From Candidatus Microgenomates bacterium (GTDB lineage: Bacteria; Patescibacteriota; Microgenomatia; UBA8517): a DNA stretch of 64,000 nucleotides. The position numbers and the translations under genes were made by a program. The notes beneath the pieces are model-generated. The model worked only from the letters and a program-made list of their open reading frames with translations, ran no database searches and was not told where the DNA came from. Shown here one piece after another: positions 4,294 to 57,027 of the stretch (its first letter is position 1; the number at the start of each line of letters is the position of its first letter). Where the stretch lies: the NCBI GenBank assembly GCA_049523135.1, contig JBEKNE010000001.1, forward strand, positions 455,009 through 519,008. The letters are read 5' to 3'.

Positions 4294-4488
4294 CTTCTTG
4301 ACAACAATATAAGGGCTGATAAAATCCTATTCATCGGTAGCAGTTGTGGTATCGAGATAATGAGACTAACGCTCGGTGGTTGCAATGCCCACATCCTCCG
4401 AAGGGTTGCTCGTGTCATGTGAGAGAAAGATGAGTCTCGATCTTTCTCTGTAATAATTGCACATTTATTTTTTATTGTGCGAGTGTAG

Positions 4489-4578
4489 CTCAGAGGTGAA
4501 GAGCGGGAGATATAACTACTCAAAAACTTTTGAGGAGGGTAATCTCTAAATCGGTGGGTTCGAATCCCCCCACTTGCG
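4489..4578 (+). ncRNA. tRNA-like gene with ~30-nt insertion in the anticodon arm (isotype not assignable)
   Basis: Acceptor GCGAGTG/CACTTGC (one G-U). D-arm GCTC-AGAGGTGAA-GAGC. T-arm GTGGG-TTCGAAT-CCCCC. A GGAGAT/ATCTCT helix encloses 32 nt that contain a perfect CTCAAAA/TTTTGAG hairpin and no canonical 7-nt anticodon loop. Confidence 0.45.
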
Positions 4579-15029: not shown

Positions 15030-15656
15030 CTAGTTTTTTCCGTATCTTCGGATGAGGCCGACAACTCTTCCCTGAATTTTTACATTTTTAACAAAAATCG
15101 GCTGCATTGCTGCATTTGCGGGCTGAAGACGGATTCGTGTGGCTTCTTTAAAAAATCTTTTAAGAGTGGCCATGCCGTTATCAAGAAGCGCCACAACAAC
15201 TTCCCCGTTATTTGCATTTTCTGTTTGTTCAACAATTACATTATCTCCGTCCATTATTCCGTCTTCGATCATACTTTCACCACGGACCTGGAGAATATAA
15301 GTTCTTTTACTGCCGCTGGCAAACGTCGCGGGAATATTCATTGAGGCATTTGGATCTGTGTAGGGTTCAATTGGTGCCCCTGCCGCAATGAAACCCAAAA
15401 TCGGAGCGTCAAAACCCTCTGGCTGTCCTAGATTAACGTCCGATTCGACCAGTTCTATTGACCTGACTTTGCCTGATTTTTTCTTAATAAGCCCTTTCGC
15501 TTCAAGAGATTGAAGGTGTTCATGAACAGTGGCCAAAGAGGATACTCCAATTGCGTCAGCTATTTGCTTAAGAGTCGGAGCTGTGCCGTTTGACTGGATA
15601 AATTGTTTAATAAATCCAAGTATTTGTTTTTGCCTTTTGTAGACGATCAGAGCCAT
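15030..15656 (-). CDS. lexA: LexA repressor
   Basis: N-terminal wHTH. Cleavage and catalytic region AAGAP...RGESMIEDGIMDGD...ATLKRF (S24 peptidase Ser/Lys). Confidence 0.9.
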   Translation of the reverse strand: MALIVYKRQKQILGFIKQFIQSNGTAPTLKQIADAIGVSSLATVHEHLQSLEAKGLIKKKSGKVRSIELVESDVNLGQPEGFDAPILGFIAAGAPIEPYTDPNASMNIPATFASGSKRTYILQVRGESMIEDGIMDGDNVIVEQTENANNGEVVVALLDNGMATLKRFFKEATRIRLQPANAAMQPIFVKNVKIQGRVVGLIRRYGKN

Positions 15657-15729
15657 ATCTTTTTATACAAATAATACCCGAAGTCGTCAACTGGAACTTT
15701 TCATATCAAACCCAAACATATAGCGAACT

Positions 15730-16050
15730 TTAGGAGTGGACTTTATCAGTGGTAAGCAATTTATTAACCTGCCTTGCGTATTCTGTAAGAGCTTCCTGAT
15801 CATGAACGGTTGTTGTGCCTATGTATCCACCGTCTTCTTCCGGATCGGTATAATAAGAGAAGACTACACCTTCTACTTTGCGTGCAACGTTTTCACGGAC
15901 TAATGCCTCTTTTCTGGTCATACGGCAAGTAAAGATATTCCCCTCCTCATCTCTTTCTTGTTTTGTAAGAAACGCCCTACCTACCGGTCTTTCTCTATAC
16001 ATAGGGGACATTATATAACAAAATGCAAATAATGATAAAATTGTCAACAA
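15730..16050 (-). CDS. hypothetical protein (divergent from uvrB, next to lexA)
   Basis: ORF only. Start is probably an internal Met (~16011). Confidence 0.3.
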   Translation of the reverse strand: MLTILSLFAFCYIMSPMYRERPVGRAFLTKQERDEEGNIFTCRMTRKEALVRENVARKVEGVVFSYYTDPEEDGGYIGTTTVHDQEALTEYARQVNKLLTTDKVHS

Positions 16051-19000
16051 TGGGGCAATTTAAGCTACACTCAAACTTTAAACCAATTCCCGATCAGGCT
16101 CGTGCAATTGAAGAATTGTCTGAGGGAATTACGAGTAGTAAAAAATACCAAACATTATTGGGGGTGACAGGGAGTGGTAAAAGTATAGATTACAATGATT
16201 ATGTTTTAATAAAAACTATTGGCAATGGATTTAAATTCAATTTGGTTGAAATTGGCGACTTCATAGATAAAATATTTGAAAACAATGTACATCTAAGTAC
16301 CCATGATTCCGAAATGGTTTATACAAATTCATTAAAAGATAACTATGAAACCTATACAATAAATCCAATAAGTGGAGAGTTTGAATATAAAAAAATTACT
16401 GCGCTTATTAGACATCAAGCGCCTAAACGACTCTATAAAATAACTACTTCTTGCGGTAGGCAAGTTACTATTACTAAAGATCATAATCTCTGGGTATTAA
16501 GAGATGGCCACCTTACTTTAATTAGAACCCAAGATGTACATAGAGGCGATTTTTTACCGATTCCTAGAAATTTAGGATTTATAGCAAATGGTATGGATGG
16601 TATATGGGTAAATGATTATTTGATTAAAAGAAAAATTTATTTTAGCTTAGATGAGCTAACAAAAAGGATATTTATACCTAAAGATAGATTAGTCAGTATT
16701 TTGGGAAATAAATATAATGGTGCAATTACAAGGCATGAAAGGGTTAATATATCTTTTCTGAAAGATCTTATTGGATATGAAAATTTGCATTTAATTAAAG
16801 ATTTGGTAATAAGTCCAAGAATCGGAAATAAAACAACCTTGTATATACCTTTAACTAACAGTTACTTAAATCTTTTAGGAATCTATCTGGCTGAAGGATG
16901 TGTTGCAAATAATTATCTTTTATTAAGTATCCACGAGTCTGAAGCAAAAAGAATACTATTTAGAACATTTAAGAATTTAAATTTACGTTATCACGAGAGA
17001 AAAAATCGTAAAGGTGATTTTCAAATAGATAATTTAATTCTTGCAAAAATATTCAAAGTTTTATGTGGAAATGGTTCAGTAAATAAGCATCTTCCTCCTT
17101 GGTTTTTTAACTTAAGTAAAGATCAAATGGTAAGAATCATTTCTGCCTATTTTGATGGAGATGGATATGTGAGTCGGAATGAAGTAAGTACAACTACTAA
17201 AAGCAAGAAATTAGCATCAGAGCTTATGTATACTTTAAGTATTTTTGATATTGTTGCCAGGTGTAGAAAGGTATTCAAAAGGGCCACAAACAGCAATATG
17301 AAGAAACAATTATATTATGAAGTGGTTATATCGGGTCAAGGGAATATAGATAAATTTAGAGAACATATAGGATTTAATTTAAAGAGAAAAAAGCATTTGC
17401 TTTTAGGTACTTTTAGGGTCAATGAAAATACAAATGTCGATTTGATACCAATAAAGCCATCCGAGTTTATAAATCTTCGCAAAAACGCAAATATTTCTCA
17501 GGAAAAATTAGCTAATCTATCTAGTTGTTCGAGAAGCTTTGTGTCAATGATAGAAAGTGGAAAAAGATTACCTTCGCAAGAAGTCTGCAAATCTATATTA
17601 GATGTTTTTAAAAATATTTTAGAAAATGAAACCGACTTTAAAATATTAGATAAATATTATTCACTTTTAAAAGCCTTTTGGACACCCATAAAGAACATAA
17701 GTTATGTAAGACCATCTACTCCTTTCATTTACGATTTTTCAGTTGATAAAAATGAAACTTTCTTAGCAGGTTTTGGTGGAATTTTTGTGCATAATACTTT
17801 TACAATGGCTGGAGTTATTGAAAAAGTCCAGCGTCCGACATTAATTATTTCCCACAATAAAACTCTGGCCGCCCAGCTTTATCAGGAGCTTAGGGATTTT
17901 TTCCCAAATAATGCGGTTTCTTACTTTGTTTCCTATTATGATTACTACCAGCCGGAGGCTTACATTCCTTCAACCGATACATATATCGAAAAAGACGCGG
18001 ATATTAATGAAACCATTGATAAACTCCGTCTTGCGGCAACCACAAATCTCTTAACGCGATGCGATACAATTGTCGTTGCTTCGGTTTCCTGCATATATAA
18101 CATAGGTTCTCCCCGAGAATACGGACATTTTGTCTTGGAGTTTACGGAAGGAATGAAGATAAATCGTGAACAAATAATTGATCGAATAGTGGACTTGCAA
18201 TATGAGCGAAGCGATTTCGGATTTAATAGGGGTACTTTCAGGGTTCGGGGTAATGCTATTGATATTTATCCTGCCTATCTTGATCAGGGAGTCCATGTAG
18301 AATTCGGTGAGGATAAAATTGAAAAAATTGAGTTAATAAATCCCGTTACGGGAAATAGCGTTCCGAAAAAAGAAGGTTTTGACCCGACGAACTTCATACT
18401 TTATCCCGCCAAACATTTTATGACTAATCCGACAACCTACGATGACGCTTTCGATGCAATCAAAAAGGATTTGGAAAGCCGTGTTTCTCAACTTAAAAAA
18501 GAAGGAAAAGATTTGGAAGCTCATAGGATTGCCCAAAAAGTTACTTACGACATGGAAATGATCAAAGAAGTGGGGTATGTCAAAGGAATTGAAAATTATT
18601 CCAGATATTTTGACGGTCGTTCCCCCGGGGACGCACCCTTTTCGCTTCTGGATTATTTTAACGAGCCCTACAAAGACAAATGGCTTCTCCTTGTCGATGA
18701 ATCTCACATGACTTTTCCGCAAATAAGGGGAATGTTTAATGGCGACTTGTCCAGAAAACAAACGTTAATCGATTACGGTTTCAGACTTCCTTCGGCACTT
18801 GATAACAGGCCTTTGAGATTTGAGGAATTTATGAGAAGAGTTCCTAATTTTATTGCGTCTTCCGCAACACCCAATGAATGGGAAATAAGCATGAGCGGAG
18901 GCAAAGTTGCGGAGCTTTTGGTCAGGCCCACGGGGATTCCCGATCCGGAAGTTGAAATTAGACCTATTAAAAATCAGGTAGCCGATGTTATAGAGGAGAT

Positions 19001-19688
19001 CAAAAAAACCACGGCCAAACACCAGAGGACTCTGGTCACAACCATGACCAAACGTACTGCCGAAGACCTTTCCGCCTATTTGAATGAGCAGGGTCTGAAA
19101 GTTCAATATTTACACTCAGATATAGCCACGCTCGATAGAACCGATATTCTGGATGATCTCAGGAACGGCAAATACGATGTTTTGGTTGGAATTAATCTTC
19201 TTAGGGAAGGCTTGGACCTTCCCGAGGTTAGCCTCGTAGCCATACTAGATGCCGATAAAGAGGGTTTCCTCCGAAGTGACGTAACCCTTGTCCAGACGAT
19301 GGGTAGGGCCGCCAGACACGTTGAGGGGCGTGTAATTATGTATGCCGATAAGATAACCGGCTCGATGGAGAGAGCTCTTTCCGAGGTCAAGAGACGTCGT
19401 GCCTATCAGTTAGAATATAACAAAAATCACAACATTACGCCCGTTAGCATAAGTAAGCCTATCCGCGAGAAACTTATTGAGCATGAAACGGACAAACGTG
19501 CCCCTTGGGTTTTTGGCAGTAAAGAGCCTGTTTACGAAAGCCTTCCGCATCTTGAAATTGATTCAATGACTCCGATGGAGAAAAAGAGGTTGGTTAAAAA
19601 TTTGACCACCGAAATGCGCCTTGCCGCACAGGATCTCAATTTCGAGCTTGCGGCGGAGATAAGGGACAAAATTAAGGAGATTATTTAA
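16023..19688 (+). CDS. uvrB: excinuclease ABC subunit B, interrupted by an in-frame intein (precursor 1221 aa; mature ~683 aa)
   Basis: GVTGSGK | S...intein...VHN | TFTMAGVIE reconstitutes the UvrB Walker A GVTGSGKTFTMA. Downstream helicase motifs, the beta-hairpin and a C-terminal UVR domain follow. The true start may be Met10 (16050). Confidence 0.93.
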   Translation: MQIMIKLSTMGQFKLHSNFKPIPDQARAIEELSEGITSSKKYQTLLGVTGSGKSIDYNDYVLIKTIGNGFKFNLVEIGDFIDKIFENNVHLSTHDSEMVYTNSLKDNYETYTINPISGEFEYKKITALIRHQAPKRLYKITTSCGRQVTITKDHNLWVLRDGHLTLIRTQDVHRGDFLPIPRNLGFIANGMDGIWVNDYLIKRKIYFSLDELTKRIFIPKDRLVSILGNKYNGAITRHERVNISFLKDLIGYENLHLIKDLVISPRIGNKTTLYIPLTNSYLNLLGIYLAEGCVANNYLLLSIHESEAKRILFRTFKNLNLRYHERKNRKGDFQIDNLILAKIFKVLCGNGSVNKHLPPWFFNLSKDQMVRIISAYFDGDGYVSRNEVSTTTKSKKLASELMYTLSIFDIVARCRKVFKRATNSNMKKQLYYEVVISGQGNIDKFREHIGFNLKRKKHLLLGTFRVNENTNVDLIPIKPSEFINLRKNANISQEKLANLSSCSRSFVSMIESGKRLPSQEVCKSILDVFKNILENETDFKILDKYYSLLKAFWTPIKNISYVRPSTPFIYDFSVDKNETFLAGFGGIFVHNTFTMAGVIEKVQRPTLIISHNKTLAAQLYQELRDFFPNNAVSYFVSYYDYYQPEAYIPSTDTYIEKDADINETIDKLRLAATTNLLTRCDTIVVASVSCIYNIGSPREYGHFVLEFTEGMKINREQIIDRIVDLQYERSDFGFNRGTFRVRGNAIDIYPAYLDQGVHVEFGEDKIEKIELINPVTGNSVPKKEGFDPTNFILYPAKHFMTNPTTYDDAFDAIKKDLESRVSQLKKEGKDLEAHRIAQKVTYDMEMIKEVGYVKGIENYSRYFDGRSPGDAPFSLLDYFNEPYKDKWLLLVDESHMTFPQIRGMFNGDLSRKQTLIDYGFRLPSALDNRPLRFEEFMRRVPNFIASSATPNEWEISMSGGKVAELLVRPTGIPDPEVEIRPIKNQVADVIEEIKKTTAKHQRTLVTTMTKRTAEDLSAYLNEQGLKVQYLHSDIATLDRTDILDDLRNGKYDVLVGINLLREGLDLPEVSLVAILDADKEGFLRSDVTLVQTMGRAARHVEGRVIMYADKITGSMERALSEVKRRRAYQLEYNKNHNITPVSISKPIREKLIEHETDKRAPWVFGSKEPVYESLPHLEIDSMTPMEKKRLVKNLTTEMRLAAQDLNFELAAEIRDKIKEII
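16182..17795 (+). mobile_element. intein (538 aa) with LAGLIDADG homing endonuclease domain and XRE-type HTH
   Basis: Begins with Ser after GSGK; block B TITKDHNLW; LAGLIDADG-like LLGIYLAEGCV and ISAYFDGDGYV; HTH ISQEKLANLSSCSRSFVSMIESGKRLPS; ends FIYDFSV...GGIFVHN followed by +1 Thr. Confidence 0.8.
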
Positions 19689-21128: not shown

Positions 21129-24041
21129 ATGGAGAACTATATCAAAATACGCGGGGCCAGACAGCACAATCTTAAAAATATTGATTTGGATATTCCAAAA
21201 AATAAGCTCGTTATTTTAACGGGCGTATCCGGGAGTGGAAAAAGCTCTTTGGCTTTCGATACATTGTATGCGGAAGGTCAGAGACGTTATGTTGAATCTC
21301 TTTCTTCATATGCCCGTCAATTTTTGGGGATAATGGAAAAGCCCGATGCGGATTCAATTGAGGGGCTTTCTCCGGCAATTTCAATAGACCAAAAGACGAC
21401 TTCCCACAATCCACGTTCAACTGTCGGAACGGTTACCGAAATTTACGATTATTTAAGGCTTCTTTTTGCCAGAATCGGGCATCCCCATTGTCCTATCTGT
21501 GGAAGAGAAATTTCTCATCAAACACTTGATCAGATTGTTGATCAAGCACTCGGTTTAATAGAAAAAACTGCCAAAGAAGATAAAAAAGCCTGGTTTTTGG
21601 TTCTTTCCCCAATGGTTGAAGCCCGAAAAGGAGAATTCTCACAGCTTTTTGAAAATTTAAAAAGCAAAGGCTACAGACAAGTCAGAATTGACGGCTATAT
21701 TCACGATTTATCGGAAGACCTTATTTTAATCAAAACAAATAAACATACAATTGAAGCTGTAACCGACAGGATTGTTCTCTCCTTAGACAGTTTTAAGAAG
21801 CCGGATTCAAAATCGGAAATTAAGAATAGATTAGCGGATTCAATCCAGCAAGCACTTAATTTATCAGAAGGTGTGGCCAAACTTACTCATGTTCTTGATA
21901 AGGAGTTTACAATGCCGGTTTCTCCAAAGAAATTTGAAGATCATCTTTTCTCAGAGCGCTTTGCCTGTCCAGTGGACAATATCAGTCTTCCAGAAATAGA
22001 ACCAAGATCTTTTTCCTTTAACTCACCACAAGGCGCATGCCCAACATGTACGGGACTTGGGAAAATCTTAAAGGCAGAGCCCGATCTTATTTTTTCACCC
22101 GAACTTTCAATAATGGAGGGGGGAATTTTACCTTTTTCCAATATGTATGAGCATGAAACCTGGTACGGAAGAATAATTAAACAAATGTGTGAGGATAACG
22201 GAATTAATATGCATAAAGCCATCAAGGATTTGCCGGAAAAAGAAATGAATATTTTATTGTATGGTACCGGGGACCGGAAATACCATGTTTACGGAACGAA
22301 CAGGTTTGGCCGTGAGACCTATATTTGGCAGGATTTCCACGGATTTGTTGCTGAGCTAGAAAGAAGGTATTCGGAATCCGAAAGCGATTGGGTTAAAGAA
22401 GAAATCAGAAAGTATATGAGAGAAAAACTTTGCCCCGAATGTAACGGATTAAGACTTAAAAAGGAAGCCCTTTCCATAACGATAGGAGGGTTTTCCATCG
22501 CAGATGTTACGGCGTTTTCCATACTTACGGCTATTGACTGGGTAAAATCCCTTGAGCAAACAAACATAACCAATACAAGAGAAAAAGAAATAGCAAGACT
22601 AATCATTAAAGAAACGGTGGGAAGACTTAAGTTTTTGGTATCGGTCGGACTGGAGTATTTAACCCTTAATAGAGTTGCAGGTTCTCTTTCCGGGGGAGAA
22701 GCGCAAAGAATCAGACTGGCAAGTCAGATCGGTTCTGGGTTAACCGGTGTTCTTTATGTTTTGGACGAACCTACAATAGGTCTTCACCCCAGAGATGATC
22801 AGAAACTAATCGATACGCTTAAAAACCTTCGGGATTTGGGAAATTCCGTAATCGTGGTCGAGCATGATGCGACAATGATGAAGCAAAGCGATTGGATTGC
22901 CGATTTTGGACCTGGTGCAGGCAAACGTGGCGGTGAAGTCGTTGCGGTCGGAACCCCCAGGGAGATTATGAATAACCCTAAATCGTTAACCGGCAAATAT
23001 TTATCGGGTAAGAAAAAAATCGAATTGCCTTCAAATCAGCTTAAAATTGAGAATACACAAAAATTAAAGCTCATTGGCGCAAATTTATATAATTTAAAAA
23101 ATATCGATGTCGGATTTCCTCTTGGTAAACTTGTGGCTATAACGGGAGTCTCAGGATCGGGTAAATCAACACTGCTTGTTGAAACGCTTTTCCCCGCATT
23201 GCAAAAAGAGCTTAATCCAAACTATCGCGGTGAAACGGGCGGTTATAAAAAGATTGAAGGTCTGGAAAACATCGATAAAGCCATACTAATCGACCAAAGT
23301 CCGATAGGAAGAACCCCAAGAAGCAACCCCGCAACGTACACGGGGCTTTTTGATCCGATCCGGGATGTTTTTACAGCAACTCATGACGCCAAGGCTGCAG
23401 GATTCAAAAAAGGGAGATTTTCTTTTAATGTCAGAGGCGGAAGATGTGAGGCTTGCGAGGGCCAAGGACAAATAAAAATTGAAATGCAGTTCATGAGCGA
23501 TATCTGGGTTACATGCGATGTCTGTCACGGAAAGCGCTACAACGAGCAAACCTTGGAAATTACATATAGAGGTAAGAATATTGCGGAAGTACTTGGAATG
23601 ACTGTTGATGAAGCCTTGGAGTTTTTCCATGCGCACCTGCAAATTGAAAGCAAACTTGAGACATTATCTCTTGTCGGACTTGGATATATAGAATTGGGAC
23701 AACCGGCAACAACACTTTCCGGTGGGGAAGCACAAAGAGTTAAACTGGCAACGGAACTTTCTAGGAGGGAAACCGGCCGAACAGTTTATATACTCGATGA
23801 ACCGACAACCGGCCTTCACTTTGCCGATGTTGAAAGGCTAATGCGAGTATTAAAATTACTCGTATCTAAGGGTAACTCGGTTTTTGTAATTGAGCACAAC
23901 TTAGACGTAATTAGAAACAGTGATTATATTATTGATTTGGGACCTGAAGGGGGAGACGCAGGGGGAAAAGTTGTAGCAACTGGAAAACCTTCCGATGTTG
24001 CAAAGGTTAAAACTTCATATACAGGAGAATATTTAAAGTAA
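21129..24041 (+). CDS. uvrA: excinuclease ABC subunit A
   Basis: Two ABC modules (GVSGSGKSSL and GVSGSGKSTL), LSGGEAQR signatures, and zinc-finger cysteines. Confidence 0.95.
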   Translation: MENYIKIRGARQHNLKNIDLDIPKNKLVILTGVSGSGKSSLAFDTLYAEGQRRYVESLSSYARQFLGIMEKPDADSIEGLSPAISIDQKTTSHNPRSTVGTVTEIYDYLRLLFARIGHPHCPICGREISHQTLDQIVDQALGLIEKTAKEDKKAWFLVLSPMVEARKGEFSQLFENLKSKGYRQVRIDGYIHDLSEDLILIKTNKHTIEAVTDRIVLSLDSFKKPDSKSEIKNRLADSIQQALNLSEGVAKLTHVLDKEFTMPVSPKKFEDHLFSERFACPVDNISLPEIEPRSFSFNSPQGACPTCTGLGKILKAEPDLIFSPELSIMEGGILPFSNMYEHETWYGRIIKQMCEDNGINMHKAIKDLPEKEMNILLYGTGDRKYHVYGTNRFGRETYIWQDFHGFVAELERRYSESESDWVKEEIRKYMREKLCPECNGLRLKKEALSITIGGFSIADVTAFSILTAIDWVKSLEQTNITNTREKEIARLIIKETVGRLKFLVSVGLEYLTLNRVAGSLSGGEAQRIRLASQIGSGLTGVLYVLDEPTIGLHPRDDQKLIDTLKNLRDLGNSVIVVEHDATMMKQSDWIADFGPGAGKRGGEVVAVGTPREIMNNPKSLTGKYLSGKKKIELPSNQLKIENTQKLKLIGANLYNLKNIDVGFPLGKLVAITGVSGSGKSTLLVETLFPALQKELNPNYRGETGGYKKIEGLENIDKAILIDQSPIGRTPRSNPATYTGLFDPIRDVFTATHDAKAAGFKKGRFSFNVRGGRCEACEGQGQIKIEMQFMSDIWVTCDVCHGKRYNEQTLEITYRGKNIAEVLGMTVDEALEFFHAHLQIESKLETLSLVGLGYIELGQPATTLSGGEAQRVKLATELSRRETGRTVYILDEPTTGLHFADVERLMRVLKLLVSKGNSVFVIEHNLDVIRNSDYIIDLGPEGGDAGGKVVATGKPSDVAKVKTSYTGEYLK

Positions 24042-41822: not shown

Positions 41823-42038
41823 AATGAGCTATAATGCGGTAGTTAGGACCTAACCCTATTCAAATAGGTATGGTTAAAGAAAACCAGTAACGAGCAGAAA
41901 GCTCTCGTTGGAGCATCGTTACTGGTCACGGTTCCGAAAGGAATTGTGGGTGCCGCAAGGCATCGCCGACGGGAGCTTTTTATTTTGTATATATAAAAGT
42001 CTTCCTTCGGCCACCTTGTAACGAAAGAGGGTGAGGGT

Positions 42039-53826: not shown

Positions 53827-53898
53827 TGACCCTGGGAAGAATCGAACTTCCATCTCGTTCTTAGAAGGAACTTGCTCTATCCGTTGAGCTACAGGGCC
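53827..53898 (-). tRNA. tRNA-Arg(UCU)
   Basis: Manual fold: acceptor GGCCCTG/CAGGGTC; anticodon loop CTTCTAA; T-arm GGAAGTTCGATTCTTCC. Confidence 0.82.
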
Positions 53899-53965
53899 TC
53901 GTGAGCGGGCGATGGGAGTCAGACCCACCCTCTTCTTCTTGGCAAGAAGACGTTTATTCGATAAA

Positions 53966-54646
53966 CTACGCCCGCATTTCAGTTGCTAACAAATCTATCC
54001 ACTGCTTCATTTTAATATTATCCTCGACACTCGAATAGTATATATCACACATTCCATTTATTACTTTATGTTTCGTAATTCCACTCTTACTTGGTAAGAC
54101 TTGGGTTTTAATAAATTGTCGTTTATCCAAATTCAAACTTTTTGCCCAAAAATCTAACGCCTTTTTTTCATTTATGTCATTATAAATAAAAATCTCCGCT
54201 CTCAATTTATCTTCCGGTATATTCAGTACTTCACGATAAAACCTAATCATCACTTTTAGCATTCTTACATCAGAATTAACAAAAGCAATTCTACCGCATT
54301 CAGTTTTATTACCTTCTCCCCAATAAATTGCCAAGCCTAGTACGAAAAGTCTATCTTCTTTTAATTTTAAATATTCATCTTTTGCACTATACCTATAATT
54401 TTCATATTTTATTAAAGTCTGAAGATGTTTTATTCTGTTGATTTTTCTCAAATAGTTAGAACTTCTTCTTTCATTTTCGGCAATTAATTGAATTTTAATT
54501 GTCTCGGACCAACTTTTATCAGATAATCAATTACTTATTGTACTCTTAGCTAAGTTTAAATTATTGCTGATTTCAGAGTAACTCTTTCCACTTTTTCTAA
54601 ACTCAATAACCTTTTTGTATAAACGTTTATTACGCACAATTGACAT
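53966..54646 (-). pseudogene. HTH + LAGLIDADG-like homing endonuclease-like gene interrupted by an in-frame TGA
   Basis: ATG at 54646 gives 39 codons (HTH-like KVIEFRKSGKSYSEISNNLNLAKSTIS), then TGA at 54527-54529, then the same frame continues into ORF 53966..54451 (LGLAIYWGEGNK is a LAGLIDADG-like motif). Confidence 0.4.
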
Positions 54647-56227: not shown

Positions 56228-56300
56228 TGCTGGGAGTGTGAGTCGAACACACATCTGGGCTTCTTCAGAGCTCCGCCGTGACCACCTTGGCTATCCCAGC
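56228..56300 (-). tRNA. tRNA-Phe(GAA), atypical D-arm
   Basis: Manual fold: acceptor GCTGGGA/TCCCAGC; anticodon loop CTGAAGA; T-arm GTGTGTTCGACTCACAC; 3-bp D-stem with an 11-nt loop. One A-C mismatch in the anticodon stem. Confidence 0.55.
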
Positions 56301-56725
56301 ATTCTTTTATACGTTCGTATCCTATGACAGTTAGCGCAAACTAAATCACATTTTTTTATTTCTTTTAGGATTTTACTTTTTGCCCACCCTCCTGCTGCCA
56401 TTCCGGCAATTTCTTTTTCCTTGATTTGGCCCTCCCTATGGTCAAAGTCCATAGCACAGGGGGGATAAACTCCCCCACAATCTTTGCAAGGTTTACTCTT
56501 GACCAAATCTAAAAATTGTCTTATTTCTTTTCTGTATTTAGCTCTTCTCTTAAGAGCTAAACTCAATTGTCGTTTATGATTTAAGTAATAGTATTTTCTT
56601 CCTCTTTCCTTCATACACTCGCTACATTTTTCATAGTATTCACCTTTCCGCGGTCCTTTTTTACGAAAATAGAACATAAAAACAGATTTTTTAATACCAC
56701 ATTTAGAACATATTTTAAAGTTCAT
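56291..56725 (-). CDS. HNH homing endonuclease-like protein with N-terminal zinc ribbon
   Basis: CSKCG...CSEC ribbon. HNH core DFDHREG...CANCHRIRT. The last codons overlap the tRNA-Phe 5' end. Confidence 0.78.
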   Translation of the reverse strand: MNFKICSKCGIKKSVFMFYFRKKGPRKGEYYEKCSECMKERGRKYYYLNHKRQLSLALKRRAKYRKEIRQFLDLVKSKPCKDCGGVYPPCAMDFDHREGQIKEKEIAGMAAGGWAKSKILKEIKKCDLVCANCHRIRTYKRMLG

Positions 56726-56777
56726 AACTAACCATAACTTATTGTATATCGAAATACAATACCGTTTTTCAGACGGG

Positions 56778-56851
56778 TGGACACTGGGGGGCTCGAACCC
56801 TCGACCTCATCGATGTAAACGATGCGCTCTGGCCAACTGAGCTAAGTGTCC
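56778..56851 (-). tRNA. tRNA-Val(UAC)
   Basis: Manual fold: acceptor GGACACT/AGTGTCC; D-arm GCTCAGTTGGCCAGAGC; anticodon stem CATCG/CGATG with loop TTTACAT. Confidence 0.82.
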
Positions 56852-56856
56852 TCAAG

Positions 56857-56937
56857 TGCACCCGGAGAGACTCGAACTCTCACGCCTTTCGGCATAGCTC
56901 CTTGGGCTACCGCGTATACCAATTCCGCCACGGGTGC
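56857..56937 (-). tRNA. class II tRNA, Leu-like D-arm, anticodon unresolved (loop CCAAGGA)
   Basis: Manual fold: acceptor GCACCCG/CGGGTGC; D-arm GCGGAATTGGTATACGC; long variable arm GCCGAAAGGCGT; T-arm GAGAGTTCGAGTCTCTC. The anticodon loop lacks U33 in the best register. Confidence 0.5.
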
Positions 56938-56945
56938 TTGTAAAG

Positions 56946-57027
56946 TGCAGGTGAGAGGACTCGAACCTCTATGGGTTGCCCCACACGCCCCTGAAGCGTG
57001 CGCGTCTGCCAATTCCGCCACATCTGC
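56946..57027 (-). tRNA. tRNA-Leu(CAG), class II
   Basis: Manual fold: anticodon stem CACGC/GCGTG with loop TTCAGGG; long variable arm; T-arm AGAGGTTCGAGTCCTCT. One A-C mismatch in the acceptor stem. Confidence 0.75.

What the first reader, a model, noticed from the sequence alone, without database searches (positions are those of the whole stretch)
17430..17620. XRE-family helix-turn-helix module embedded inside the intein endonuclease region
Residues ~480-530 of the precursor (NLRKNANISQEKLANLSSCSRSFVSMIESGKRLPSQEV) look like a Cro/C1-type HTH. They sit between the second LAGLIDADG motif and the C-terminal splicing blocks. A repressor-type HTH inside an intein is uncommon. It could be a DNA-recognition add-on for the homing endonuclease, or a regulatory moiety released upon splicing.
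Basis: seen in the sequence. Interest (0 to 1): 0.6.

Follow-up and report, generated by a model that had tools for sequence, protein, structure and literature searches.

The report
Helix-turn-helix accessory domain of a UvrB intein
The helix-turn-helix is real, but it is the usual DNA-binding accessory domain found between the nuclease and the C-terminal splicing part in this group of mobile inteins, so it is a new example of a known design and not an oddity.

Summary
Residues 485-529 of the UvrB precursor (nt 17475-17609) match Pfam HTH_3 at 38.4 bits against a cutoff of 23. They model as a confident five-helix Cro/C1-type bundle.

The domain does not lie inside the LAGLIDADG fold. It is a separate module between the endonuclease and the C-terminal splicing strands of a 538-aa intein (nt 16182-17795). 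The intein splits the UvrB Walker A loop (GSGK|S...HN|T).

This position is the "accessory domain" (ACD) described for the solved inteins PI-TkoII and TliVMA, whose ACDs are reported as HTH-like. Both are the best structural matches to the whole-intein model.

The claim that it is uncommon fails:
- 79 of 80 related inteins from species genomes carry the same HTH. About 74 sit in UvrB, across 8 bacterial phyla; the rest are in archaeal ATPases.
- 51 of 85 accessory regions in the wider MCM/HerA/UvrB P-loop intein clade hit HTH_3.
- In relatives the domain is under purifying selection (dN/dS about 0.24).

It most likely extends DNA contacts of the homing endonuclease on the intein-free uvrB allele. 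A post-splicing regulatory role has no support.

Verdict: new member of a known kind, low to moderate interest.

The parts
16023..19688 (+). uvrB precursor ORF, 1221 aa. The true start is probably the ATG at 16050.
   Evidence: NCBIfam UvrB equivalogs score 941.8 and 924.6 bits. Pfam finds UvrB_inter, Helicase_C, UvrB and UVR. NCBI's copy of the same protein (P0167, 1212 aa) starts at M10.
16182..17795 (+). Intein of 538 aa inserted in the Walker A P-loop (GSGK|SIDYND...GIFVHN|TFTMAG). It has Ser1, block B T98xxH101, and C-terminal His-Asn followed by Thr+1.
   Evidence: Removing it restores a colinear 683-aa UvrB. Pfam Intein_splicing and NCBIfam intein_Nterm match. The best PDB relative is PI-PkoII/PI-TkoII 2cw7, E 9e-24. 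The whole-intein model has pLDDT 82.8 and pTM 0.84. Foldseek gives 2cw7 at E 6e-28 and 7qss at E 1e-24.
16182..16586 (+). N-terminal splicing (HINT) part, intein residues 1-135.
   Evidence: It aligns to the mini-inteins 5o9i, 5o9j, 2jmz and 6rpp. The model shows beta strands at high pLDDT.
16848..17432 (+). LAGLIDADG homing endonuclease domain, intein residues 223-417. Motif 1 is LLGIYLAEG (nt 16872-16898) and motif 2 is ISAYFDGDG (nt 17139-17165).
   Evidence: Pfam LAGLIDADG_3 scores 53.4 bits. The acidic residues E238 and D327 are present here, and are conserved in 65/65 and 63/65 relatives.
17442..17666 (+). Accessory domain: a five-helix Cro/C1 (XRE)-type HTH, intein residues 421-495 (precursor aa 474-548). 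The Pfam HTH_3 match covers nt 17475-17609.
   Evidence: HTH_3 scores 38.4 bits on the whole protein and 44.6 bits on the segment alone. The helices are at intein 426-435, 440-446, 451-459, 466-479 and 483-495, with pLDDT about 87-95. The domain-only model has pLDDT 86.3. All 50 best Foldseek PDB matches are XRE-family HTH proteins; C.Kpn2I 4yba superposes at rmsd 0.8 over 55 columns.
17499..17558 (+). The helix-turn-helix proper. Helix 2 is SQEKLAN (nt 17499-17519). The recognition helix 3 begins ...S-R SFVSMIE (nt 17532-17558).
   Evidence: Helix positions come from the model's secondary structure. In 65 related inteins S450 is kept in 53, R451 in 51, E458 in 65, R462 in 61 and P464 in 65.
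17667..17795 (+). C-terminal splicing (HINT) strands, intein residues 496-538, ending ...FLAGFGGIFVHN.
   Evidence: It aligns to the C-termini of 2cw7, 5o9i and 5o9j. H537 and N538 are conserved in 65/65 relatives.

Best explanation
The segment is the accessory domain (ACD) of a homing-endonuclease-bearing intein in the Walker A loop of UvrB, in a Candidatus Microgenomates (Patescibacteria) genome.

**Architecture.** The intein is modular: HINT-N, a linker, a LAGLIDADG nuclease, a Cro/C1-type HTH, then HINT-C.

**Proposed mechanism.**
1. After translation, the HINT halves excise the intein and ligate UvrB.
2. The free 538-aa protein acts as the homing nuclease.
3. The LAGLIDADG saddle binds and cuts the intein-free uvrB allele at the P-loop codons.
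4. The tethered monomeric HTH adds contacts to DNA flanking the core site. The contacts proposed are Ser450/Arg451 at the start of the recognition helix and the basic loop R462-x-P464.
5. These contacts set affinity and target range.

**Shown here.**
- The domain's identity, fold and position.
- Its near-universal presence in this clade.
- Its sequence conservation in relatives.
- Intact catalytic and splicing residues.

**Inferred.** DNA binding by the HTH and its role in homing-site recognition are inferred from published ACD experiments on other inteins, and from the kind of residues that are conserved.
For: **Identity and fold**
- HTH_3 scores above its cutoff.
- The confident five-helix model matches only XRE-family HTH structures among the best 50 PDB hits.

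**Position and structural relatives**
- The domain lies between HEN and HINT-C, exactly where PMC8966425 defines intein ACDs.
- That paper reports that the ACDs of TliVMA and PI-TkoII resemble HTH DNA-binding proteins.
- It also reports that deleting or swapping ACDs, including grafting in the 434 repressor domain, changes DNA cleavage patterns.
- Those two inteins are the top structural matches to this intein: 2cw7 with TM 0.66, and 7qss with target-normalised TM 0.78.

**Conservation across relatives**
- All 5 closest database homologues are UvrB P-loop inteins with HTH_3 at the same place.
- 79/80 loci recovered with a block-B pattern that lies outside the HTH carry it.
- 51/85 accessory regions of MCM, HerA and UvrB relatives hit HTH_3.

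**Selection in relatives**
- Median dN/dS for the ACD is 0.24, against 0.10 for the nuclease domain.
- The conserved polar positions are R433, S450, R451, R462 and P464.

**Nuclease and splicing residues**
- E238, D327, K302, Ser1, T98, H101, H537 and N538 are all present.

**Mobility**
- Intein GC is 28.8% against 42.5% for the exteins, with sharp edges at the junctions.
- Intein-free uvrB alleles sit in the same 90%-identity protein cluster, within a syntenic lexA-uvrB-uvrA locus.
Against: - No DNA-binding or cleavage data exist for this protein or for any UvrB intein.
- The orientation of the HTH relative to the LAGLIDADG saddle could not be measured, because model coordinates are not exposed.
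- The ACD-only model did not retrieve the ACDs of 2cw7 or 7qss among its best 50 Foldseek hits. Sequence profiles did not align the ACD of 2cw7 either. Homology to the solved intein ACDs is therefore not shown.
- In PMC8966425, removing the TliVMA ACD made cleavage more specific, not less. The effect of an ACD on specificity is therefore not simple.
- The window's copy lacks two basic residues that are conserved in relatives: position 430 is Ile where 60/65 have Arg or Lys, and position 466 is Gln where 61/65 have Arg. Its own DNA binding may be weakened.
- The dN/dS pairs are not independent, and many have saturated dS.
Confidence: 0.78

Rival explanations
1. Regulatory moiety. After splicing, the free intein (or its HTH) acts as a sequence-specific transcription regulator of host genes, as a domesticated LAGLIDADG+HTH protein in the manner of WhiA.
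For: - WhiA shows that a LAGLIDADG scaffold plus an HTH can become a transcription factor (PMC3240954, listed; 3hyi and 8dy9 appear as weak fold matches).
- The nuclease and the HTH are both under purifying selection in relatives across 8 phyla. The homing-cycle model would not predict this after fixation.
- uvrB lies next to lexA.
Against: - The catalytic acidic residues are intact (E238 in 65/65, D327 in 63/65), and so are the splicing residues. The protein therefore looks like a working homing nuclease and not a domesticated binder.
- No copy of the reconstituted target sequence occurs elsewhere in the 64-kb window or in the uvrB/lexA intergenic region.
- The element is compositionally foreign, and a related lineage with an intein-free uvrB allele has the same lexA-uvrB-uvrA locus arrangement.
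- A single XRE HTH monomer reads only a few base pairs.
Confidence: 0.07
2. Structural spacer. The HTH fold is kept only as a compact linker that holds the nuclease and HINT-C in register for folding and splicing, and it no longer binds DNA.
For: - PMC8966425 notes mutual dependence between nuclease scaffolds and splicing in some inteins.
- The ACD is the least conserved folded module: entropy 2.20 against 1.62 for the nuclease, and dN/dS 0.24 against 0.10.
- Relatives carry unrelated ACDs of about 200 aa, or short ones without an HTH_3 hit.
- The window's copy has lost two conserved basic residues.
Against: - The positions conserved best include polar and basic residues typical of DNA contact in XRE proteins: S450/R451 at the start of helix 3, R462, and R at position 466 in 61/65 relatives. 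Conservation is therefore not limited to the hydrophobic core.
- The sequence still matches the DNA-binding family profile above its cutoff in most relatives.
- Published ACD swaps change cleavage patterns.
Confidence: 0.12
3. Artefact. The match is a chance resemblance, or the segment belongs to the LAGLIDADG fold or is disordered.
For: None was found. The full-length Foldseek E-values are driven by the other domains.
Against: - HTH_3 E-value is 1.2e-9, at 15 bits above the cutoff.
- pLDDT is about 87-95 over five helices.
- The domain-only model superposes on XRE proteins at rmsd 0.8-1.2.
- The domain is conserved in 79/80 relatives.
Confidence: 0.01

Closest known systems
Accessory domains (ACDs) of homing-endonuclease inteins: PI-TkoII/PI-PkoII (PDB 2cw7) and the TliVMA intein (PDB 7qss), described in PMC8966425
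   Same: - The modular order is the same: HINT-N, LAGLIDADG nuclease, an extra domain, HINT-C.
- The extra domain sits at the same junction.
- Both solved ACDs are reported as HTH-like.
- These inteins are the best whole-structure matches.
- TliVMA is also a P-loop insertion (VMA-b site).
   Different: - Here the ACD is a sequence-canonical Pfam HTH_3 domain, clearly related to free-living XRE regulators.
- The solved ACDs were recognised by shape only. They were not linked to this one by sequence profile, nor in the best 50 domain-level fold matches.
- The host is bacterial UvrB, not an archaeal DNA polymerase or V-ATPase.
Archaeal MCM (CDC21) site-a and HerA P-loop inteins
   Same: - They belong to the same intein clade by profile search (E down to 1e-100 and below).
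- The insertion point is the same, after the Walker A lysine, with Ser1.
- Many carry HTH_3 at the same junction.
   Different: - The host proteins and the domain of life differ.
- Some MCM inteins appear to carry two tandem HTH units, or quite different ACDs of about 150-200 aa.
Cro/C1 (XRE) family regulators: R-M controller proteins (C.Kpn2I, C.EcoT38IS, C.AhdI), SinR, HipB, HigA, DdrO and 434 repressor
   Same: - The five-helix fold is the same, and the sequence matches the family profile.
- The pattern E-x-G-x-R-x-P-S after the recognition helix is shared.
   Different: - Those proteins are free-standing dimers that bind palindromic operators.
- This one is a single copy fused inside an enzyme, with no dimerisation module evident.
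- Its presumed target is a non-palindromic coding sequence.
WhiA (LAGLIDADG scaffold plus C-terminal HTH, a transcription factor)
   Same: A LAGLIDADG domain is followed by an HTH in one polypeptide. It is a weak fold match over the LAGLIDADG part (3hyi, TM 0.26-0.46).
   Different: - WhiA has no HINT domain and no nuclease activity.
- Its HTH is of a different type.
- Here the catalytic residues and the splicing residues are all intact.

Membership tests
Pfam HTH_3 / Cro-C1 (XRE) helix-turn-helix domain | Sequence match to the family profile above the curated cutoff | tested here: met
   38.4 bits against a cutoff of 23, E 1.2e-9, on the whole protein; 44.6 bits on the segment alone.
Pfam HTH_3 / Cro-C1 (XRE) helix-turn-helix domain | Compact five-helix bundle with helices 2-3 forming the HTH | tested here: met
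   AlphaFold models have pLDDT about 87-95 in context and 86.3 alone. The best 50 Foldseek PDB matches are all XRE-family proteins, with rmsd 0.8-1.2 over 50-56 columns to 4yba, 8tac and 7t5u.
Pfam HTH_3 / Cro-C1 (XRE) helix-turn-helix domain | Sequence-specific DNA binding | not testable with these tools
   There is only indirect support: S450, R451 and R462 are conserved in 51-61 of 65 relatives.
Homing-endonuclease-bearing intein (HINT + LAGLIDADG) | Splicing residues: N-terminal Ser/Cys, block B TxxH, C-terminal His-Asn, and a Ser/Thr/Cys at +1 | tested here: met
   Ser1, T98-K-D-H101 and H537-N538 followed by Thr are present. Each is conserved in 65/65 relatives.
Homing-endonuclease-bearing intein (HINT + LAGLIDADG) | Removal restores an uninterrupted, conserved host protein | tested here: met
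   Joining the exteins gives GVTGSGK-TFTMAG. This is colinear with intein-free UvrB of the same 90% cluster (P0165, P0166: GVTGSGKTFAMAG).
Homing-endonuclease-bearing intein (HINT + LAGLIDADG) | Two LAGLIDADG motifs with catalytic acidic residues | tested here: met
   The motifs are LLGIYLAEG and ISAYFDGDG. Pfam LAGLIDADG_3 scores 53.4 bits.
Homing-endonuclease-bearing intein (HINT + LAGLIDADG) | Protein splicing and site-specific cleavage activity | not testable with these tools
   This needs expression and in vitro assays.
Intein accessory domain (ACD) in the sense of PMC8966425 | A separate domain between the nuclease domain and the C-terminal HINT part | tested here: met
   LAGLIDADG_3 covers aa 368-450, HTH_3 covers aa 485-529, and the HINT-C strands start at aa 549. 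The paper's definition was read.
Intein accessory domain (ACD) in the sense of PMC8966425 | Structural equivalence of this ACD to the HTH-like ACDs of PI-TkoII and TliVMA | tested here: inconclusive
Intein accessory domain (ACD) in the sense of PMC8966425 | Modulates DNA recognition or cleavage by the nuclease | not testable with these tools
   This has been shown only for the VMA inteins in the paper.
WhiA-like domesticated LAGLIDADG+HTH regulator | Free-standing protein with no HINT domain and without nuclease catalytic residues | tested here: not met
   Both HINT halves and the residues E238 and D327 are present.

The most novel reading that the evidence does not exclude
The UvrB P-loop intein family is more than a passing selfish element. 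Its nuclease plus HTH module may be kept by selection because the excised protein has a host-level DNA-binding role, for example marking or regulating DNA-repair loci. This would explain why 65 of 65 complete copies across 8 phyla retain intact nuclease and HTH features with dN/dS of 0.1-0.24, where the homing cycle would predict decay.
Probability: 0.06. Interest if true: 0.75.

Novelty: new member of a known kind. Interest (0 to 1): 0.27.

Why it matters
For the scan, an apparent oddity is resolved as the normal architecture of one intein clade.

For intein biology there are three modest additions:

1. **Origin of accessory domains.** The accessory domain of this clade is a sequence-recognisable XRE-family HTH. 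This supports the published hypothesis that inteins recruit DNA-binding domains from transcription factors.
2. **A little-described family.** UvrB P-loop inteins appear to be widespread, at about 74 species-level genomes in 8 bacterial phyla. Three full-text searches and a reading of the 2015 intein survey turned up no description of them.
3. **Natural variation for engineering.** The clade offers single, tandem and replaced accessory domains on one nuclease scaffold. This is relevant to engineering meganuclease specificity.

Tried and rejected
- **Word-indexed homologue searches.** They returned only 11 proteins each. That is too few for an unbiased census of HTH-bearing inteins. I relied on the exhaustive representative search and the genome scan instead.
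- **Bias in the 51/85 figure.** It comes from hits ranked with a profile that included the HTH, so it is an upper-leaning estimate. The 79/80 figure comes from a pattern outside the HTH, but it covers only the sub-clade that keeps that block-B motif.
- **Linking to solved ACDs by sequence.** A PDB profile search aligned only the HINT and nuclease parts of 2cw7 and the nuclease part of 7qss, not their ACDs.
- **Operator-like copies of the homing site.** A search of the window found only other Walker A codon stretches.
- **Literature.** Searches for UvrB inteins found nothing relevant. UvrB is absent from the top-15 table in PMC4760082.
- **Considered and rejected.**
  - Recent capture of the HTH from a host XRE gene: the HTH shares the intein's low GC, and it is present in relatives from other phyla.
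  - The HTH as part of the LAGLIDADG fold: the model and Pfam boundaries show it is separate.
Full report
**1. What is at the coordinates**

The interval 17430-17620 lies inside one long ORF, 16023..19688 on the + strand.
- This ORF is UvrB. The NCBIfam equivalogs PRK05298 and TIGR00631 score 941.8 and 924.6 bits.
- Pfam finds UvrB_inter, Helicase_C, UvrB and UVR.
- A 538-aa insertion splits the Walker A loop...LLGVTGSGK | SIDYND ... GGIFVHN | TFTMAGVIEK... Removing precursor residues 54-591 (nt 16182-17795) leaves a colinear UvrB.
- The insertion has the marks of an intein. These are Ser1, block B T-K-D-H, a terminal His-Asn followed by Thr, Pfam Intein_splicing, two LAGLIDADG motifs (LLGIYLAEG and ISAYFDGDG) and Pfam LAGLIDADG_3.

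**2.

- The quoted peptide is precursor residues 484-521.
- Pfam HTH_3 matches residues 485-529 with E 1.2e-9 and 38.4 bits, against a curated cutoff of 23.
- The interval translated on its own gives 44.6 bits. HTH_31 and HTH_19 also match.
- A profile of seven related inteins, run against PDB sequences, picks up free-living XRE proteins over exactly this stretch. They include the designed binder DBP48, HigA, a phage immunity repressor, C.AhdI, C.BclI, SinR, DdrO and HipB.

**3. Fold and position**

- An AlphaFold model of the whole intein has mean pLDDT 82.8 and pTM 0.84. It places five helices at intein residues 426-435, 440-446, 451-459, 466-479 and 483-495, with block pLDDT of about 87-95.
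- A model of the domain alone has pLDDT 86.3 and the same five helices.
- Its best 50 Foldseek matches in the PDB are all Cro/C1-family proteins. C.Kpn2I (4yba) superposes at rmsd 0.8 over 55 columns.
None of them is met.
- The title needs one correction. About 100 residues of nuclease fold follow LAGLIDADG motif 2 before the HTH begins (LAGLIDADG_3 covers residues 368-450). The HTH is therefore a separate module between the nuclease and the C-terminal splicing strands. It runs to about nt 17666.

**4. This module is a known thing**

- Beyer et al. (PMC8966425) solved two archaeal VMA inteins. They define an "accessory domain" (ACD) residing between the nuclease and the C-terminal HINT part.
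- They state that the ACDs of the TliVMA intein and of PI-TkoII resemble HTH DNA-binding proteins.
- They show that deleting or swapping ACDs changes cleavage patterns. One swap grafted in the 434 repressor domain.
- They propose that inteins obtain ACDs from transcription factors.
- Those two inteins are the best structural matches to the present model. 2cw7 gives E 6e-28 and TM 0.66. 7qss gives E 1.4e-24 and TM 0.78 normalised on the target. PI-PfuI is third.
- I could not show that the ACDs themselves superpose:
  - The domain-only query did not list intein chains among its best 50.
  - The sequence profile did not align the 2cw7 ACD.

**5. It is not uncommon**

- The five closest database homologues (31-35% identity) are all UvrB inteins at the same P-loop site. 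All carry PF01381 at the same place.
- An exhaustive profile search of 1.84 billion representatives found 20,857 relatives at E <= 0.001 and 881 at E <= 1e-30.
- From the best 160 proteins I cut 85 complete regions between the end of the nuclease (...NTNVD) and the start of HINT-C. Of these, 51 hit Pfam HTH_3 at E <= 0.01.
- The hosts of these relatives are P-loop ATPases cut after the Walker A lysine. They include archaeal MCM, HerA and VirB11/FlaI-like ATPases as well as UvrB.
- That sample leans towards HTH-bearing inteins, because the ranking profile included the HTH.
- A less biased sample came from scanning 185,579 species genomes with a block-B peptide pattern that lies outside the HTH.
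  - It gave 80 loci. About 74 are UvrB P-loop inteins, found in Chloroflexota, Gammaproteobacteria, Bacteroidota/Rhodothermales, Cyanobacteria, Omnitrophota, Patescibacteria and Myxococcales. One is in the cultured Candidatus Fervidibacter sacchari PD1.
  - Six are in archaeal ATPases.
  - 79 of the 80 carry the HTH. The one exception is cut off by the end of its contig.

**6. Is the domain maintained?**

Across 65 complete inteins:
- The ACD is more variable than the nuclease or HINT-C. Mean column entropy is 2.20, against 1.62 and 1.26.
- Several positions are nearly fixed. R433, E458 and P464 are kept in 65/65, R462 in 61, S450 in 53 and R451 in 51.
- S450-R451 open the recognition helix. 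R462-x-P464 follows it, in the same place as the basic loop of 434 repressor (this comparison is from my own recollection of that protein).
- Nei-Gojobori dN/dS over close pairs has a median of 0.24 for the ACD (range 0.09-0.51). The values are 0.10 for the nuclease, 0.10 for HINT-C and 0.14 for HINT-N.
- The pairs are not independent and many have saturated dS. The least diverged pairs still give 0.09-0.28.
- The nuclease residues E238, D327 and K302 are kept in 65, 63 and 65 copies. The splicing residues are kept in all 65.
- The window's own copy keeps most of these. It has Ile at position 430, where 60 of 65 have Arg or Lys. It has Gln at position 466, where 61 of 65 have Arg. Its DNA affinity may therefore be lower than that of its relatives.

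**7. Signs of mobility**

- The window belongs to a Candidatus Microgenomates genome. Identical proteins carry NCBI accessions MGA3292016-34.
- The intein is 28.8% GC. The exteins are 42.5% and the window is 38.7%. The drop starts and ends at the splice junctions, and the HTH shares the low value.
- The same 90%-identity protein cluster holds intein-free UvrB proteins of 673-675 aa with an uninterrupted GVTGSGKTFAMAG.
- One of them sits in a syntenic lexA-uvrB-uvrA locus. Its uvrB is 42.7% GC and 76% identical in DNA to the window's exteins.
- The element therefore looks acquired as a unit, and empty target sites exist in related lineages.

**8. Most likely function, and the rivals**

Best explanation (about 0.78): the HTH is the DNA-contact accessory domain of the homing nuclease. 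It adds contacts flanking the LAGLIDADG core site on the intein-free uvrB allele.
- The domain's identity, position and conservation are shown here.
- DNA binding and its effect on targeting are inferred from published work and from which residues are conserved.

Rivals:
- **Post-splicing regulator (0.07).** WhiA is a precedent. Against it, the catalytic residues are intact, no second copy of the target was found in the window, and a related lineage with an intein-free uvrB allele has the same locus arrangement.
- **Structural spacer that no longer binds DNA (0.12).** The ACD is the least constrained module, and relatives tolerate unrelated ACDs. Against it, conserved polar and basic surface positions argue for DNA contact.
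- **Chance or artefact (0.01).**

**9. Novelty and verdict**

- The kind is known: a homing-endonuclease intein with an HTH-like accessory domain.
- This instance is a new member. I found no paper describing UvrB inteins.
- Here the accessory domain is recognisable as XRE-family by sequence alone.
- Interest is low to moderate.

Noticed in passing
window 16182-17795 against 16050-16181 and 17796-19688: The intein is 28.8% GC, while the flanking uvrB exteins are 42.5% and the window is 38.7%. The drop begins and ends at the splice junctions. This suggests acquisition from a lower-GC donor.
   Followed up: partly
L082 1501-3522 (JGI 3300014502); proteins P0165, P0166, P0171: Intein-free UvrB proteins of 673-675 aa fall in the same 90%-identity cluster as the window's precursor. 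One lies in a syntenic lexA-uvrB-uvrA locus. Empty homing sites therefore exist in related Patescibacteria.
   Followed up: partly
window 15030-15656 (-), 16023-19688 (+), 21129-24041 (+): lexA is transcribed divergently from uvrB, and uvrA lies about 1.4 kb downstream, forming a compact SOS/excision-repair cluster. I did not look for a LexA box in the 15657-16022 spacer. The small ORF 15730-16050 (-) overlaps that spacer.
   Followed up: no
window 16023 against 16050: The JGI gene call starts at ATG 16023 (MQIMIKLST...). NCBI's copy of the same protein starts at the ATG at 16050 (MGQFKLHSNF...), which fits UvrB N-termini better.
   Followed up: partly
window 41847-41964 (+): Rfam LOOT RNA (RF03000) matches at 71.5 bits against a gathering score of 46.4, over the full model length.
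   Followed up: no
window 4479-4578 (+); 53827-53975 (-); 56228-57027 (-): A 100-nt tRNA-model match has a low score of 39.9 bits, possibly an intron or a long arm. Two clusters of tRNA genes also occur.
   Followed up: no
P0044 682-810, P0070 684-809, P0106 706-845, P0065 380-498, P0034, P0110, P0123 (archaeal MCM inteins): Accessory regions of about 143-148 aa appear to hold two HTH units in tandem. My six-sequence ACD profile finds two hits in each, while Pfam reports one HTH_3 stretch per protein.
   Followed up: partly
P0041, P0046, P0055, P0064, P0068, P0073, P0074, P0079 (accessory regions of about 177-202 aa): A second class of accessory region in related P-loop inteins starts IPE[IL]GS[IV]F..., with a K/R-P-S motif. 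None of them matched Pfam HTH_3 clearly. It may be a diverged or replaced accessory domain.
   Followed up: no
P0083 (532 aa), P0092 (538 aa), P0127 (537 aa): These are intein-sized free-standing proteins related to a UvrB intein (P0047). They have no exteins and have lost the splicing residues: no Ser1, block B His replaced, and ends such as ...FIGTNF. They keep both LAGLIDADG motifs and the HTH. They may be intein-derived stand-alone nucleases or binders.
   Followed up: no
65 complete inteins from L002-L081 plus the window: The nuclease catalytic residues are kept in 63-65 of 65 copies, and nuclease dN/dS is about 0.10 across 8 phyla. This is more conserved than the homing-cycle model of decay after fixation would lead one to expect.
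   Followed up: partly
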